64,000 bases of DNA from the NCBI RefSeq assembly GCF_013315695.1, contig NZ_CP054353.1; one strand, 5' to 3'. The stretch's first letter is position 1. Every line of letters begins with the position of its first letter. The DNA comes from Escherichia coli (GTDB taxonomy: Bacteria > Pseudomonadota > Gammaproteobacteria > Enterobacterales > Enterobacteriaceae). Shown here one piece after another: positions 38,607-41,248 of this stretch. A model generated the notes under the pieces. It was not told where the DNA came from, did no database searches, and saw nothing but the letters and a program-made list of their open reading frames with translations. Position numbers and translations under genes: made by a program.

Positions 38607-40667
38607 ATGACAGTAAAAATTTCTGGCGTGCTTAAAGATGGCACAGGAAAACCAGTACAGAACTGCACCATTGTGCTGAAGGCCAGACGAACCAGCAGCA
38701 CGGTGGTGGTGAACACGGTGGCCTCTGAAAATCCGGATGAAGCCGGACGTTACAGCATGGATGTTGAGCATGGTCAGTACAGCGTCACCCTGCTGGTTGA
38801 AGGTTTTCCGCCTTCACATGCCGGGACCATTACCGTCTATGAAGGTTCCAGACCAGGTACGCTGAATGATTTTCTCGGCGCCATGACGGAGGATGATGTT
38901 CGTCCGGAGGCACTGCGCCGTTTTGAGCTGATGGTGAATGAAGTGGCACGTCATGCCGGAGCGTCATCACAGAGTGCAGCGGCGGCAAAGAAATCCGAAA
39001 CGGCAGCAGCCTCATCGAAGAATGCGGCGAAAACCTCAGAAACGAATGCAGCTAACAGCGCACAGGCGGCAGCGGCCTCGCAGACTGCATCGGCAAACTC
39101 CGCGACAGCAGCCAAAAAATCAGAAACCAGCGCGAAAAATAGCGAGACAGCCACAAAGGCCAGCGAAAAAAACGCAAAATCCAGCCAGACGGCAGCGAAA
39201 ACCAGTGAGACGAATGCCAAAGACAGTGAAGCCAACGCAAAGGTGAGCGAAACAGCGGCGGCGAACTCGGCGAAAGCATCGGCAGCAAGCCAGACGGCAG
39301 CAAAAGCAAGTGAAGATGCTGCCAGAGAATACGCAAACCAGACAGCAGAGCCGTACAGATATGTTTTACAGCCGCTGCCGGATGTGTGGATACCCTTTAA
39401 TGATTCGCTGGATATGATTACGGGCTATTCTCCGGGTTATAAAAAAGTGAAGATTGGTGATAATGTGGTTCAGGTTGCCAGTGATAAACAGGTTAATTTC
39501 AGTCGCGCATCAACGGCAACATATATCAACAAATCTGGCGAACTGAAAACGGCGGAAATTAATGAGCCACGATTTGAAAAAGAAGGTTTATTGATTGAAG
39601 GTCAGCGAACCAACTACATGTTGAATTCAGCAACTCCAGCTTCTTGGGGTAAATCTGCAAATATGAATGTCGCTGAGGTTGGAACTGATAGTTTTGGTTT
39701 TACTTATGGAAAGTTTGTTTGTAATGAATCATTAATTGGGCAAAGTACAACCCTTAATATGGCAGTAGTTTCAACCTCGGGGGCTGTCGATGTATCAGGC
39801 GATAATAAGTGTGTGACGACATCGTGCAGATTTAAAACGGATTTGGAACTCCTGTTAAGGATCAGGTTTGAAGCCTTCGATGGCAGCGCTTCATCTAATC
39901 TTGGATATGCCATTGTTAATACGCGGTCTTTATTGGTTGAAATCACCGGTGTAGCTGCCGACAGGCTCACCGCACGAGTTAACAAAGATGAAGCTACGGG
40001 CTGGATTTTTGTAGAGGCAACGATTCAAGCAAGTAAAGAAACTTACATAACCTCTGCAATACAATACGCACCAAAAAAAGGTGGTGTCGTTGAATCTGGT
40101 GACTATATTTATCTGGCCACCCCTCAGGTTGAGGATGGTTCGTGTGTATCATCTTTTATTATATCAGGAACGACGGCGGCGACGCGCGCAAGCGATATGG
40201 TTACAGTTCCGATTAAGAATAATCTTTATAATCTTCCTTTTACGGTTCTTTGTGAGGTACATAAGAACTGGTATAAAACGCCAAATGCAGCGCCACGTGT
40301 TTTTGATACCGGCGGTCATCAAACCGGAGCGGCTATTATTCTTGGCTTCGGATCTTCGGCAGATGGGCCAGACGGATTTCCTTATTGCGATATTGGTGGA
40401 TCAAATAGGCGTGTTAACGAAAACGCATCGTTGAAAAAAATGGTTATGGGGATGCGTGTAAAGTCAGATCAGTCTACATGTGCAGTAAGTAACGGGCGTA
40501 TATCCAGCGAAACAAAAACCACATGGGAATATATCCGGAGTACAGCAACCATTCGCATTGGTGGACAAACTACAGCAGGATTACGCCATTTATTTGGGCA
40601 TGTGAGGAATTTTCGTCTCTGGCATAAAGAGCTAACAGATGCGCAGCTTGGGGAGGTTGTGGAGTGA
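38607..40667 (+). CDS. stf: Side tail fiber protein (Stf-like) with AT-rich variable C-terminal domain
   Basis: N-terminal 120 aa nearly colinear with lambda Stf (MTVKISGVLKDGTGKPVQNCTI...GFPPSHAGTITVYE); Ala/Ser/Thr/Lys repeat region; C-terminal 430 aa AT-rich. Confidence 0.8.
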   Translation: MTVKISGVLKDGTGKPVQNCTIVLKARRTSSTVVVNTVASENPDEAGRYSMDVEHGQYSVTLLVEGFPPSHAGTITVYEGSRPGTLNDFLGAMTEDDVRPEALRRFELMVNEVARHAGASSQSAAAAKKSETAAASSKNAAKTSETNAANSAQAAAASQTASANSATAAKKSETSAKNSETATKASEKNAKSSQTAAKTSETNAKDSEANAKVSETAAANSAKASAASQTAAKASEDAAREYANQTAEPYRYVLQPLPDVWIPFNDSLDMITGYSPGYKKVKIGDNVVQVASDKQVNFSRASTATYINKSGELKTAEINEPRFEKEGLLIEGQRTNYMLNSATPASWGKSANMNVAEVGTDSFGFTYGKFVCNESLIGQSTTLNMAVVSTSGAVDVSGDNKCVTTSCRFKTDLELLLRIRFEAFDGSASSNLGYAIVNTRSLLVEITGVAADRLTARVNKDEATGWIFVEATIQASKETYITSAIQYAPKKGGVVESGDYIYLATPQVEDGSCVSSFIISGTTAATRASDMVTVPIKNNLYNLPFTVLCEVHKNWYKTPNAAPRVFDTGGHQTGAAIILGFGSSADGPDGFPYCDIGGSNRRVNENASLKKMVMGMRVKSDQSTCAVSNGRISSETKTTWEYIRSTATIRIGGQTTAGLRHLFGHVRNFRLWHKELTDAQLGEVVE

Positions 40668-40942
40668 GAGATTTCACGTTGCGTTTCAGTGATAAAGCAG
40701 ATTTCAGGGCATTTCTCAGGAAACTTAACTGGGAAGAGGACGAAGAGCTGCAGAATGCCATTCTGGTTGATGAGATTGGTTTTACGTTCAGTGAGTCAGG
40801 TGTTTCTGCTGACGGGGAGCCTGAATACACGCGAGACGAAGGGTACTTTGTTAATATTCGTCTTCTTGACGATGGCTTTGATGAATCCGTGTTCCGTGAG
40901 TGGGTGGTTACACCAGAGCGCCCGCTCAGGGAGTGGTTTTAA
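40664..40942 (+). CDS. Hypothetical acidic protein (92 aa), translationally coupled to stf
   Basis: GTGA start/stop overlap with stf after GGAGG; no recognised family; not an obvious Tfa. Confidence 0.4.
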   Translation: MRDFTLRFSDKADFRAFLRKLNWEEDEELQNAILVDEIGFTFSESGVSADGEPEYTRDEGYFVNIRLLDDGFDESVFREWVVTPERPLREWF

Positions 40943-40951
40943 GGGGAGCAG

Positions 40952-41248
40952 ATGGATATCACGCCGATACTTCATGCAATTTGTGCAGTAGCCGTGCAGG
41001 GGCTGGTCGGGTGCATTACCGGTGACTGGGTTTACGGAGCGATAGCGGGTTGTACGTTCTTTATTGCCCGAGAACATACCCAGGCAGAATATCGCTGGAT
41101 TAAGCGTTTTGGTGATGGTCACAGACAGAACATGCCGTGGTGGGGCGGTTTTGATCCGCGTGTGTGGAATGTGGCCAGTCTGATGGATTTTGTGGTGCCG
41201 GTGGTGGCCTGTGCGGGATTGTATGGCTGTATGCTGATTTTTAGCTGA
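40952..41248 (+). CDS. Hypothetical small membrane protein (98 aa)
   Basis: AAGGGGAG RBS before ATG 40952; two hydrophobic segments (AICAVAVQGLVGCITGDWVYGAIAGCTFFI; VVPVVACAGLYGCMLIF); 9 nt after the preceding ORF. Confidence 0.4.
   Translation: MDITPILHAICAVAVQGLVGCITGDWVYGAIAGCTFFIAREHTQAEYRWIKRFGDGHRQNMPWWGGFDPRVWNVASLMDFVVPVVACAGLYGCMLIFS

What the first reader, a model, noticed from the sequence alone, without database searches (positions are those of the whole stretch)
40664..41248. Two-gene cargo cassette of unknown function between the tail fiber and dinI
Where lambda has tfa, this prophage has a 92-aa acidic protein (coupled to stf by a GTGA overlap) followed 9 nt later by a 98-aa membrane protein with two hydrophobic segments and a WWGGFD motif. 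Neither resembles a tail fiber assembly chaperone as far as I can tell. The tail-fiber-to-att interval is a recognised cargo hotspot in lambdoid prophages.
Basis: partly seen in the sequence, partly recalled or inferred. Interest (0 to 1): 0.5.

Follow-up and report, generated by a model that had tools for sequence, protein, structure and literature searches.

The report
Fibre partner gene plus membrane-protein gene
The two small genes after this E. coli prophage's side tail fibre are real and conserved but are not one cargo cassette: the first is an uncharacterised partner of a widespread class of phage tail fibres, also found in strictly lytic phages, and the second is a separate, very common, uncharacterised inner-membrane protein that temperate phages carry just behind their receptor-binding genes.

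Summary
The "two-gene cargo cassette" reading is only partly right.

**ORF1 (PHROG 1361)** follows lateral tail-fibre genes directly in 187 phage records. These include lytic T1-like, T5-like, Queuovirinae, Dhillonvirus and rV5-like phages. All 14 fibres examined end in the same ~110-aa domain. In rV5-like phages this fibre end plus ORF1 alternates with a fibre ending in an intramolecular chaperone and lacking ORF1. ORF1 therefore belongs to the fibre module. It is probably a trans-acting assembly factor or small attached subunit of a new family.

**ORF2 (PHROG 1443, UniProt "Ybl63")** is a confidently modelled three-helix membrane protein with 14 invariant residues. It occurs in 1920 of 5426 complete E. 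coli genomes. No full-length copy was found in the lytic coliphages that share the fibre module. It also follows unrelated receptor-binding genes in P22-like, epsilon15-like and P2-like temperate phages. It is probably an accessory envelope-directed factor, such as exclusion or surface conversion, but its function and expression are untested.

Neither family has a characterised member. Interest is moderate.

The parts
38559..38588 (+). Terminator-like hairpin plus T-run between the lom-like gene and stf. It marks the start of the stf-ORF1-ORF2 block.
   Evidence: 13-bp stem with 7 GC pairs, followed by TTTTTATT. Phage 21 has an annotated terminator at the equivalent place.
38607..40667 (+). 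Side tail fibre (Stf, 686 aa). It has a lambda-Stf-type N-terminal anchor, an Ala/Ser/Lys-rich shaft, a domain like the RcGTA head-spike fibre, and a conserved C-terminal ~110-aa domain ending IRIGGQT..G.RHLFGHVRNFRLWHKELTD. It has no intramolecular chaperone domain.
   Evidence: Pfam phage_tail_N at 1-131, E = 4e-68, and nothing else. PDB 9e7m tail fibre matches residues 1-94 at 1.4e-47, and 6tb9 matches 298-543 at 4e-6. NF048003 matches 329-528. The C-terminal domain is shared by 14 of 14 fibres that precede an ORF1 homologue.
40664..40942 (+). ORF1: a 92-aa acidic cytoplasmic alpha/beta protein (PHROG 1361). It is translationally coupled to stf by the GTGA overlap. It is a fibre-module partner, inferred to be an assembly factor or small attached subunit.
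   Evidence: for the gene and PHROG match. It is 44-51% identical to genes directly behind lateral fibre genes of lytic phages. AlphaFold2 pLDDT is 92, with a lower-confidence C-terminal tail that carries the near-invariant R89 and invariant W91. There is no Pfam, NCBIfam, PDB or PADLOC hit.
40943..40951 (+). Nine-nt spacer GGGGAGCAG carrying the ORF2 ribosome-binding site.
   Evidence: The same 9-12 nt junction type links ORF1 to ORF2, or ORF1 to a distal fibre gene, in relatives.
40952..41248 (+). ORF2: a 98-aa three-helix inner-membrane protein (PHROG 1443, UniProt name Ybl63). It has a conserved REHTQAEYRW...PWWGGFD loop. It is inferred to be an accessory envelope-directed factor of temperate phages.
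   Evidence: Homology to other phages stops at 41212 (residue 87).
41255..41274 (-). Terminator-like hairpin (GGGGAGC...GCTCCCC plus T7) read on the minus strand. It ends the dinI-like transcript just beyond the ORF2 stop. It lacks a T-run on the plus strand.
41366..41614 (-). DinI-like gene (82 aa). This is the next gene, on the opposite strand, and belongs to the true variable cargo region between ORF2 and the prophage end.
   Evidence: PHROG 189, E = 6.7e-26. RefSeq names it 'DinI-like family protein'. What follows ORF2 differs between relatives: sitABCD, an invertase, a methyltransferase, or dinI-int.

Best explanation
The interval holds two functionally separate genes that both ride on the side-tail-fibre transcript.

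**ORF1.** It is the dedicated small partner of a widespread class of lateral tail fibres whose proximal fibre protein ends in a conserved ~110-aa lectin-like domain. ORF1 is made in step with Stf through translational coupling. It most likely acts on that C-terminal part of the fibre, either as a trans-acting folding or assembly factor or as a small subunit that stays attached. It would fill the role that a C-terminal intramolecular chaperone fills in alternative fibre alleles and that Tfa fills in lambda.
- *Shown:* family membership, gene order, presence in lytic phages, and alternation with intramolecular-chaperone alleles.
- *Inferred:* physical binding and chaperone activity.

**ORF2.** It is a member of the uncharacterised Ybl63 family, a three-helix inner-membrane protein. 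Its highly conserved, positively charged loop probably faces the cytoplasm. Temperate phages of siphovirus, podovirus and myovirus types carry it as the last gene behind their receptor-binding genes. The lytic coliphages with the same fibre module carry no full-length copy. It most likely acts on a conserved host envelope component to benefit the lysogen or the infected cell, for example by superinfection exclusion or interference with surface-glycan assembly.
- *Shown:* distribution, conservation and modelled fold.
- *Inferred:* topology, target and phenotype.
For: **ORF1**
- It gives a full-length match to PHROG 1361, E = 2.7e-39.
- tblastn finds it in 187 phage records, 178 of them near full length. 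These include Drexlerviridae, Markadamsvirinae, Queuovirinae, Dhillonvirus and Vequintavirinae.
- In the annotated rows the hit overlaps a tail-fibre gene in about 44 of 51 cases.
- Identity is 44% (E = 1e-29 and 2e-30) to the genes overlapping the fibre stop codon in VogelGryff and ESCO3.
- The order is the same in IrisVonRoten, orkinos and JeffSchatz.
- All 14 upstream fibres share the C-terminal domain, and none ends in an intramolecular chaperone.
- Reference rV5 gp41 ends in an intramolecular chaperone and has no ORF1. The JeffSchatz/rV5_ev146 allele has the conserved end plus ORF1.
- The nearly identical whole module is shared by the temperate HannyBb and the lytic ESCO3, with ORF1 92% identical.
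- PhiR40_1 (97% identical DNA, same gene order, no Tfa) is deposited as a complete phage genome with a propagation host. Phage 21 carries the same stf-ORF1-ORF2 order with more diverged sequences (ORF1 63% identical).

**ORF2**
- PHROG 1443, E = 1.9e-48.
- 538 homologues, all unnamed.
- Fourteen invariant residues: H8, G29, R40, E41, Q44, E46, Y47, R48, G56, G66, F67, W72, D79 and P83.
- AlphaFold2 pLDDT 93.8.
- The only structural relatives are 'Ybl63' or uncharacterised proteins.
- It is present in 1920 of 5426 complete E. coli genomes, with a median of 2 copies.
- It is the last gene after a P22-like tailspike, an epsilon15-like fibre, the P2-like tfa of phiHAP-1 and a pectate-lyase-like tailspike in Citrobacter.
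- No full-length copy was found in any lytic coliphage.
- It stays 91-100% identical among eight other lambdoid phages whose ORF1 and fibre ends are only about 50% identical.
- K+R averages 5.7 in residues 40-73 and about 0 at the termini.
Against: **ORF1**
- ORF1 identity correlates only weakly with the fibre's last 110 residues (Spearman 0.13; Mantel r = 0.25, p = 0.06). It correlates better with the preceding 310 residues (Spearman 0.64).
- No virion proteomics or binding data were found.

**ORF2**
- No own promoter is detectable in the window.
- In HannyBb-type phages a terminator sits 12 nt before its RBS. Expression may therefore be late and lytic rather than from the prophage, which fits a classical lysogenic-conversion gene poorly.
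- In 73 of 77 close lambdoid relatives it does co-occur with ORF1, so some functional link to this fibre type cannot be excluded.
- In three phage types it lies next to a lysis cassette.
- Partial homologues exist in jumbo Aeromonas phages.
- A stand-alone chromosomal copy exists in Aeromonas.
Confidence: 0.6

Rival explanations
1. ORF1 is a structural connector, a hinge or adaptor, that docks a separate distal fibre protein onto the proximal fibre. This would resemble the small connector proteins of the T4 long fibre. In this prophage the distal fibre gene has been lost, so ORF1 is a leftover or merely caps the fibre.
For: - In most relatives a distal fibre gene follows ORF1 by 9-12 nt: 51 of 73 IMG/VR loci, plus VogelGryff, ESCO3, IrisVonRoten, HannyBb, PhiR11_1, PhiR47_1 and IdasGreatGrand.
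- These distal fibres share a conserved N-terminal motif, M[AV]TxTVIPxDIxxLK.
- ORF1 sequences cluster partly by whether a distal fibre is present.
- Humolli et al. model the Bas32 distal fibre as attached to the proximal fibre (PMC11990801).
Against: - ORF1 is retained, intact and under conservation, in phages with no distal fibre gene: the window prophage (no such gene anywhere in 64 kb), phage 21, PhiR40_1, ev243 and 2G7a.
- It is also retained in the rV5-like phages, where baseplate genes follow.
- The C-terminal PxRxW motif is kept whether or not a distal fibre gene is present.
Confidence: 0.2
2. ORF1 and ORF2 together form one functional cargo unit. It would be, for example, a two-component defence, exclusion or toxin-antidote pair carried for the lysogen.
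For: - The genes are adjacent, only 9 nt apart, on the same strand.
- ORF1 lies upstream of ORF2 in 73 of 77 close lambdoid relatives in IMG/VR, and directly adjacent in 22 of them.
- The pair is kept even in the defective Rac prophage of BL21.
Against: - ORF1 occurs without ORF2 in lytic phages of five groups.
- ORF2 occurs without ORF1 in P22-like, epsilon15-like, P2-like and other contexts.
- The two genes are usually split by a 0.7-1.1 kb fibre gene.
- Their sequence divergence is uncorrelated.
- There are no PADLOC hits.
Confidence: 0.05
3. ORF2 is a lysis-related membrane protein, such as a holin, antiholin or lysis-timing factor, expressed late with the fibre genes.
For: - Its size and three helices resemble class I holins.
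- It gives a weak Pfam Phage_holin_8 match, E = 0.0045.
- It lies immediately before holin-endolysin cassettes in epsilon15-like phages, in SSU5-like phage-plasmids and in a metagenomic phage, where it sits 10 nt before a Phage_holin_3_3 gene.
- It appears to lack a promoter of its own in lambdoid phages.
Against: - The Pfam hit is sub-threshold and is seen in only 1 of 31 family members.
- In lambdoid and P22-like phages it lies far from the lysis cassette.
- It ends at the last helix without the charged C-terminal tail typical of holins.
- Its strong sequence conservation with invariant polar residues across alpha-, beta-, gamma- and deltaproteobacteria is unlike holins.
- A stand-alone chromosomal copy exists in Aeromonas.
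Confidence: 0.12
4. ORF1 is an acidic anti-defence protein, for example a DNA mimic, that merely happens to sit after the fibre gene.
For: It is small, strongly acidic (pI 4.25) and widespread in lytic phages.
Against: - Its position and start/stop overlap with a late structural gene are invariant across six phage groups.
- It alternates with intramolecular-chaperone fibre alleles.
- It travels together with the fibre end.
- It would be expressed late, which does not suit countering restriction at entry.
Confidence: 0.03

Closest known systems
Lambda Tfa and related tail fibre assembly proteins (Pfam Caudo_TAP PF02413; P2 G, Mu U)
   Same: The gene sits immediately downstream of the side tail fibre gene in the same operon. 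It occupies exactly the place lambda gives to tfa. Like Tfa, it is expected to act on the fibre's C-terminal part. (That these proteins are chaperones that can remain bound to the fibre tip is my own knowledge of the field, not tested here.)
   Different: No sequence relationship was found. None of 25 ORF1 family members gives a Pfam hit. hhalign against a Tfa fragment gives probability 0.7%. ORF1 is half the size, and the predicted alpha/beta fold has no convincing match. The cognate fibre end is also a different domain.
C-terminal intramolecular chaperone domains of fibres and tailspikes (Peptidase_S74 type; T5 pb1, K1F endosialidase, rV5 gp41)
   Same: These appear as the alternative solution at the same locus. 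Reference rV5 gp41 ends in such a domain and has no ORF1. The allele in JeffSchatz/rV5_ev146 lacks it and has ORF1. T5-like, Queuovirinae and Drexlerviridae phages likewise carry fibres of either type (PMC8594841, PMC11990801, 10.64898/2026.05.19.726188).
   Different: ORF1 is a separate polypeptide, not an autocleaved domain, and shows no homology to it. That ORF1 substitutes for this function is an inference from mutual exclusivity only.
T4 gp38 / gp57A and T4 gp35-gp36 connector proteins
   Same: These are small proteins encoded next to fibre genes. They either chaperone the fibre, stay at its tip, or join half-fibres. ORF1 lies between the proximal and distal fibre genes in most relatives.
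   Different: No homology. ORF1 persists where there is no distal fibre.
Phage accessory genes ('morons') behind receptor-binding genes: P22/Hf4s gtr seroconversion cluster, epsilon15 conversion genes, P2 Z/fun, phi80/N15 cor, T5 llp, HK97 gp15
   Same: ORF2 occupies the same genomic slots. These are between the tailspike gene and int in a P22-like phage (gtr cluster in Hf4s, 10.1101/2021.06.09.447823), after the epsilon15-like tail fibre, and between tfa and the sheath gene in a P2-like phage. It is a small membrane protein, and full-length copies were found only in temperate or unclassified phages, never in lytic coliphages.
   Different: No homology to any of them and no PADLOC hit. It is not specific to one receptor-binding protein type. 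In lambdoid phages it has no detectable promoter of its own. It is far more conserved than typical exclusion proteins. No phenotype is known.
Class I holins (three transmembrane helices, about 100 aa)
   Same: Similar size, similar helix count, and occasional adjacency to lysis genes.
   Different: See the membership test. The Pfam hit is sub-threshold and confined to one family member, there is no charged C-terminal tail, the polar motif is highly conserved, and the gene usually lies far from lysis genes.

Membership tests
Tfa / Caudo_TAP (PF02413) tail fibre assembly proteins | Significant match to the Pfam Caudo_TAP profile or to a known Tfa sequence | tested here: not met
   ORF1 gives no Pfam hit with E <= 0.001 and no Caudo_TAP hit at all. 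No member of the 25-sequence alignment hits it. hhalign against the ev243 Tfa fragment gives probability 0.7%. Known tail-fibre-assembly PHROGs did match that control fragment.
Tfa / Caudo_TAP (PF02413) tail fibre assembly proteins | Encoded directly downstream of, and co-expressed with, the fibre gene it serves | tested here: met
   GTGA overlap with stf. The same overlap or a 1-nt junction occurs in 13 other phages.
Tfa / Caudo_TAP (PF02413) tail fibre assembly proteins | Required for folding or trimerisation of the fibre C-terminus, and binds it | not testable with these tools
   This needs co-expression, pull-down or a multimer structure prediction.
PHROG 1361 (unknown function) | Full-length profile match | tested here: met
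   E = 2.7e-39, residues 1-92 against profile positions 1-92 of 92. The divergent PhiR11_1 homologue also matches, 1.9e-30.
PHROG 1443 / UniProt 'Ybl63' family (unknown function) | Full-length profile match, shared fold and shared invariant motif | tested here: met
   E = 1.9e-48. Foldseek top hits are 'Ybl63', TM 0.87-0.96. The REHTQAEYRW and WWGGFD motifs are conserved in 31 aligned members.
Holins (Pfam Phage_holin_8 and class I holins in general) | Significant profile match | tested here: not met
   i-Evalue 0.0045 over 40 residues for the window protein only. None of the other 30 members reaches E <= 0.1.
Holins (Pfam Phage_holin_8 and class I holins in general) | Encoded in the lysis cassette next to an endolysin, with a charged cytoplasmic C-terminal tail | tested here: not met
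   In the window, phage 21, PhiR40_1 and Gally it is the last late gene, far from the lysis genes. The protein ends at helix 3, with a mean tail of 0.8 residues. Adjacency to lysis genes is seen only in some phage types.
Morons / lysogenic-conversion genes (as defined for lambdoid phages: an independently acquired gene with its own promoter and terminator, expressed from the prophage) | Present or absent independently of neighbouring genes among related phages, and found in unrelated phage backbones | tested here: met
   This holds for ORF2. It follows four unrelated receptor-binding protein types in four phage morphotype groups. DNA similarity between contexts starts at its ATG. It does not hold for ORF1, which always travels with the fibre.
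Morons / lysogenic-conversion genes (as defined for lambdoid phages: an independently acquired gene with its own promoter and terminator, expressed from the prophage) | Own promoter and terminator | tested here: inconclusive
   No sigma-70-like site lies on the plus strand in 38400-41800. In HannyBb-type phages there is a terminator 12 nt before the RBS and no room for a promoter. Gally has a terminator plus a 190-nt AT-rich spacer with only weak promoter-like matches.
Morons / lysogenic-conversion genes (as defined for lambdoid phages: an independently acquired gene with its own promoter and terminator, expressed from the prophage) | Expressed in the lysogen and changes the host phenotype | not testable with these tools
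   This needs lysogen RNA-seq or proteomics and phenotype assays.
Known anti-phage defence or exclusion proteins (PADLOC-DB) | Profile match to a catalogued defence protein | tested here: not met
   No family with E <= 1 for ORF1 or ORF2.

The most novel reading that the evidence does not exclude
ORF1 founds a previously unrecognised class of trans-acting tail-fibre assembly or attachment proteins. It would be unrelated to Tfa, gp38, gp57A and intramolecular chaperone domains. It would be obligatory for all lateral fibres that end in the conserved lectin-like domain, across lambdoid, T1-like, T5-like, Queuovirinae, Dhillonvirus and rV5-like phages.

ORF2 (Ybl63) is a generic, receptor-independent envelope factor present in about a third of E. 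coli genomes. It would act from the cytoplasmic face of the inner membrane to alter surface-glycan assembly or block phage genome entry. All the receptor-binding proteins it follows are of glycan-targeting types.
Probability: 0.3. Interest if true: 0.6.

Novelty: new variant of a known kind. Interest (0 to 1): 0.4.

Why it matters
**ORF1**
- Swapping receptor-binding modules to retarget phages fails when a cognate assembly factor is left behind.
- If ORF1 is such a factor, it must be moved together with this very common fibre end.
- Annotation pipelines currently call it "hypothetical" (RefSeq) or, inconsistently, "tail fiber protein" (Bas32).
- Published fibre models of Bas32 describe the two flanking fibre proteins; the passages I read do not discuss the small protein between them.

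**ORF2**
- It is one of the commonest uncharacterised prophage membrane proteins in E. coli. It occurs in 1920 of 5426 complete genomes, often in several copies, and in BL21.
- It has invariant polar residues that invite mutagenesis.
- A phenotype in phage exclusion or surface-glycan biology would be directly testable with existing phage collections.

For the scan itself, the useful result is a correction. The cargo region of this prophage starts after ORF2, or at ORF2, and not at ORF1.

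Tried and rejected
1. **Conserved-domain and defence libraries.** Pfam, NCBIfam and PADLOC gave nothing usable for either protein.
2. **PDB sequence search.** Nothing for the ORF1 sequence or the ORF2 profile.
3. **Fold searches.**
   - ORF1 against BFVD returned only uncharacterised proteins.
   - ORF2 against AFDB50 returned only its own family and generic helical membrane proteins.
4. **Large multi-repeat hits.** The exhaustive ORF1 search returned several very large proteins (1,241-2,744 aa) with 5-8 matched stretches each. I inspected two, P0143 and P0173. They consist of PKD-like or other tandem repeats matching a short GY.VN.R-like strand, so I rejected these hits as repeat artefacts.
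5. **Covariation.** I looked for simple covariation of ORF1 with the last 110 fibre residues as evidence of binding. It was weak (Spearman 0.13; Mantel p = 0.06). Covariation with the preceding segment was stronger (0.64). With 14 mosaic phages this is not decisive.
6. **Literature.** No paper mentions Ybl63, the RefSeq accessions or the FIG identifiers. The BASEL papers, the DT57C structure papers, the rV5 proteomics paper and the infant-gut coliphage paper do not discuss either gene. DT57C LtfA/LtfB is a different fibre type without ORF1. I did not trace virion proteomics for an ORF1-bearing phage.
8. **A promoter of ORF2's own.** None was found in the window, and there is no conserved upstream DNA across contexts.
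9. **A distal fibre gene or Tfa elsewhere in the window.** None was found.

Full report
**1. The observation**

The region reads as the first-stage reader described.
- The side tail fibre gene runs 38607-40667 (686 aa).
- ORF1 starts at the GTG at 40664, inside the sequence GAG-TGA. This gives a four-base GTGA overlap, with a GGAGG Shine-Dalgarno upstream. ORF1 ends at 40942 (92 aa).
- After nine bases (GGGGAGCAG), ORF2 runs 40952-41248 (98 aa).
- ORF1 has 23 acidic and 11 basic residues and a pI of 4.25.
- ORF2 is hydrophobic and contains WWGGFD.
- A DinI-like gene follows on the other strand at 41366-41614.
- The host genes btsS, btsR and yehS follow. The window matches E. coli IAI39 and 35 other complete genomes over 40600-42100.
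- RefSeq annotates both ORFs as "hypothetical protein".

Both are real genes.
- They give full-length matches to PHROG 1361 (E = 2.7e-39) and PHROG 1443 (E = 1.9e-48), both of unknown function.
- Neither has a Pfam, NCBIfam, PADLOC or PDB-sequence match.
- No Tfa-like sequence exists anywhere in the window.

**2. ORF1 belongs to the tail fibre, not to the cargo**

*Distribution.* A translated search of about 50,000 phage genomes finds ORF1 in 187 records, 178 of them near full length. Most are lytic phages:
- T1-like Drexlerviridae (orkinos, tonn, swan01)
- T5-like Markadamsvirinae (IrisVonRoten, L6jm, VSe12)
- Queuovirinae (VogelGryff, JenP1, ESCO3)
- Dhillonvirus (KarlBarth)
- rV5-like Vequintavirinae (JeffSchatz, nomo)

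*Gene order.* In the annotated rows the hit nearly always overlaps a tail-fibre gene. I inspected 13 loci.
- In every one the ORF1 homologue starts within a few bases of the stop codon of a long lateral or side fibre gene.
- Identity to the window protein is 44% (E = 1e-29 and 2e-30) for the lytic VogelGryff and ESCO3.

*Shared fibre end.* All 14 fibre proteins that precede an ORF1 homologue end in the same ~110-residue domain...GFGS...DG[YF]PYCDIGG[SA]NRRV...IRIGGQT..G.RHL.GH.... Humolli et al. describe this as a protruding galectin-like domain in the Bas32 proximal fibre (PMC11990801). None of the 14 ends in an intramolecular chaperone. The window Stf has only the phage_tail_N Pfam domain.

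*A natural allele swap.* Reference rV5 gp41 ends in a K1F-type intramolecular chaperone (PMC3606486; sequence). It is followed directly by gp40, with no small ORF between them. The JeffSchatz/rV5_ev146 allele of the same gene ends in the conserved domain and is followed by a 110-aa ORF1 homologue.

*Module exchange.* The module moves between lifestyles. ORF1 of temperate HannyBb and lytic ESCO3 are 92% identical, and their fibre ends are 95% identical.

*Complete phages without Tfa.* PhiR40_1 is 97% identical to the window over stf-ORF1-ORF2 and has the same J-lom-stf-ORF1-ORF2-dinI-int order. It is deposited as a complete phage genome with ECOR13 named as host. Phage 21 also has the trio.

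A gene with this distribution cannot be lysogen cargo.

**3. What ORF1 does is inferred, not shown**

*Structure.*
- AlphaFold2 gives a confident compact alpha/beta domain (pLDDT 92). The last ten residues are less confident (mean 66), and they carry the near-invariant R89 and the invariant W91.
- BFVD gives only uncharacterised proteins.
- The ORF1 profile has no similarity to a Tfa fragment (probability 0.7%).

*My reading.* Three features point to a trans-acting assembly factor for this fibre end, one that may remain attached: translational coupling, strict association with one fibre-end domain, and mutual exclusivity with intramolecular-chaperone alleles.

*The main rival* is a connector for a distal fibre.
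- In most relatives a distal fibre gene follows ORF1 by 9-12 nt: 51 of 73 IMG/VR loci.
- These distal fibres share a conserved N-terminus, M[AV]TxTVIPxDIxxLK.
- Against this, ORF1 is retained where there is no distal fibre. That covers the window, phage 21, PhiR40_1, ev243, 2G7a and the rV5-like phages.

*Covariation* is not decisive. ORF1 identity tracks the fibre segment at -420 to -110 (Spearman 0.64) better than the last 110 residues (0.13; Mantel p = 0.06). The sample is 14 mosaic phages.

**4. ORF2 is a separate gene with a different history**

*Independent evolution.* In the nine temperate phages with both genes:
- ORF2 (residues 1-87) is 78-100% identical, mean 91%.
- ORF1 is 31-99% identical, mean 52%.
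- The two sets of identities are uncorrelated (Spearman -0.19).

*Distribution.*
- ORF2 is found in 74 phage records. All near-full-length hits are in temperate or unclassified phages, and no full-length copy occurs in a lytic coliphage.
- It has 538 protein clusters in the large database, all unnamed.
- DNA homologues occur in 1920 of 5426 complete E. coli genomes, with a median of two copies and up to seven.
- One copy is in the defective Rac prophage of BL21, ordered stf fragment-ORF1-ORF2-tfa fragment-pinR.

*ORF2 without ORF1.* It is the last gene behind several unrelated receptor-binding genes:
- a P22-like tailspike, in the tailspike-int interval where P22-type phages keep gtr seroconversion genes (Gally; L045; Hf4s preprint 10.1101/2021.06.09.447823)
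- the epsilon15-like tail fibre (phiv142-3; L066 and L076)
- the tfa of the P2-like Halomonas phage phiHAP-1, before the sheath gene
- a pectate-lyase-like tailspike in a Citrobacter prophage
- a giant fibre plus DUF4376/DUF7338 genes in a metagenomic phage

A 59%-identical copy stands alone in an Aeromonas chromosome.

*Boundaries of the conserved unit.*
- DNA similarity between these contexts begins at the ATG.
- What follows ORF2 differs from phage to phage: sitABCD, invertase, methyltransferase, HNH nuclease, dinI-int.
- ORF2 is therefore the last conserved gene before the truly variable cargo.

**5. ORF2 structure and likely action**

*Structure.*
- AlphaFold2 gives three helices (4-23, 26-53, 74-97) at pLDDT 93.8.
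- Thirty-one diverse members share 14 invariant residues: H8, G29, R40, E41, Q44, E46, Y47, R48, G56, G66, F67, W72, D79 and P83. Another 23 residues are nearly invariant.
- Foldseek finds only "Ybl63" or uncharacterised relatives, extending to alpha-, beta- and deltaproteobacteria.

*Topology.* Lys+Arg average 5.7 in residues 40-73 and about zero at both ends and in the helix 1-2 turn. By the positive-inside rule the conserved loop is cytoplasmic, giving an N-in/C-out three-pass topology. This is an inference. The phage 21 annotation quotes a different TMHMM topology.

*Interpretation.* Such strong conservation of polar residues, regardless of which receptor-binding protein lies upstream, argues for a conserved host target or a catalytic or ligand site. 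It argues against a receptor-specific plug. My best guess is a host-envelope-directed accessory function, either superinfection exclusion or interference with surface-glycan assembly.

*Caveats.*
- No promoter is detectable upstream in the window.
- In the HannyBb type a terminator sits 12 nt before the RBS. Expression may depend on late antiterminated transcription.
- In three phage types ORF2 abuts a holin-endolysin cassette, which keeps a lysis-related role alive at low probability. The Phage_holin_8 hit (E = 0.0045) is seen in 1 of 31 members and is best read as compositional.
- In close lambdoid relatives ORF2 nearly always accompanies the ORF1-type fibre (73 of 77). Linkage to that module within lambdoid phages is therefore real, whatever its cause.

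**6. Comparison with known systems**

ORF1 works, I infer, like Tfa or an intramolecular chaperone. It fails the only testable membership criterion, homology, for both. It is therefore a new family in a known role, or possibly a connector.

ORF2 sits where morons and conversion genes sit. It shares no sequence with gtr, cor, llp, Z/fun, HK97 gp15 or any PADLOC family, and it lacks demonstrated prophage expression.

No literature on either family was found.

**7. Verdict**

- "Not a Tfa" is confirmed.
- "Two-gene cargo cassette" is not supported for ORF1 and only loosely supported for ORF2.
- The finding is not exotic, but it exposes two very common, completely uncharacterised phage protein families with clear and cheap experiments.
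- Interest is 0.4.
- Novelty: a new variant of known kinds, namely a fibre accessory factor and a temperate-phage accessory membrane protein.

Noticed in passing
window 41630-41645 (with promoter-like site 41680-41651, minus strand): A perfect LexA-box core, CTGT-N8-ACAG (CTGTagttatgtACAG), lies just upstream of the dinI-like gene start and just downstream of a TTGACA-18-AAAAAT promoter-like site. The prophage dinI homologue therefore looks SOS-regulated. I read this directly from the sequence.
   Followed up: partly
window 41212-41248: Similarity of the window to all other phages stops at residue 87 of ORF2. The last 11 codons and everything downstream differ. The window ORF2 allele is also an outlier, at 78-82% identity against 91-100% among eight other lambdoid phages. 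This suggests a recombination joint inside the 3' end of the gene. Helix 3 is still complete.
   Followed up: partly
L027:3976-5424 (E. coli BL21 Star(DE3), Rac prophage): BL21's defective Rac prophage carries a fibre C-terminal fragment, an ORF1 homologue, an ORF2 homologue and a 3' fragment of tfa before pinR. The whole fibre-end/ORF1/ORF2 block appears to have replaced a stfR-tfaR-type end by recombination. Both genes are thus present in a standard laboratory strain.
   Followed up: partly
L015:6001-6309 (Aeromonas rivipollensis chromosome): A 59%-identical ORF2 homologue stands alone in a non-phage neighbourhood. It lies between a pirin gene and a RIO1 kinase gene, with two lipid A acyltransferase genes nearby on the opposite strand.
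   Followed up: no
L005:4292-, L003:4587-, L004:5289-, L006:4292-, L021:3286-, L022:2918-: The distal fibre proteins encoded after ORF1 homologues share a conserved N-terminal motif, M[AV]TxTVIPxDIxxLK. This holds across lambdoid, Queuovirinae, T5-like and T1-like phages although their bodies differ. It is presumably the docking end. In orkinos the gene is split into 86-aa and 168-aa ORFs.
   Followed up: partly
window 39500-40235 (Stf residues 298-543): The middle of the side tail fibre is homologous to the head spike fibre of the Rhodobacter gene transfer agent (PDB 6tb9, E = 4e-6; NCBIfam NF048003, E = 3.6e-13). The first 94 residues match a solved tail fibre chain, 9e7m.
   Followed up: no
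L005:5330-5359; also L045 and L048 (about 60 nt before the ORF2 start): In phages with a distal fibre gene, a hairpin terminator (GGGGCCGAGCGCCCC plus TTTTATT) sits 12 nt before the ORF2 ribosome-binding site. The same remnant of the distal fibre 3' end plus terminator precedes ORF2 in a P22-like context (L045) and next to an IS1 (L048). ORF2 therefore moved there from a lambdoid fibre locus.
   Followed up: partly
L039, L041, L052 (IMG/VR contigs, one of 111 kb; PhiR41_1, 108 kb): Large ParA-carrying elements, apparently SSU5-like phage-plasmids, carry a fibre with the window-type C-terminus, an almost identical ORF1, then ORF2, followed by holin-like, endolysin-like and spanin-like genes.
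   Followed up: no
L013:2933-5055 (phage D2): An insertion-sequence-like block of three 'mobile element protein' genes interrupts the side tail fibre gene of phage D2 and relatives (1W, 3W, 4A7). ORF1 and ORF2 remain intact downstream.
   Followed up: no
rows H64, H78, H80, H89 and the organism counts: Records named 'Campylobacter phage C11-C14' and 'Listeria' phages carry coliphage-type fibre modules with ORF1 homologues. For example, C13 (99.9 kb) resembles a T5-like coliphage. These labels look like mis-assignments or contaminants in the public collection.
   Followed up: no
window 40796-41263 (minus strand): A 155-aa antisense ORF spans ORF2 and the end of ORF1. Similar antisense ORFs appear in relatives, and it has no independent support. 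It is probably a by-product of codon usage on the coding strand.
   Followed up: no
window about 41842-41907: RefSeq marks a 66-nt pseudogene fragment ('incomplete; missing C-terminus') between the dinI-like gene and btsS in IAI39. The prophage-host junction must lie in 41.65-42.1 kb. The att site was not mapped.
   Followed up: no
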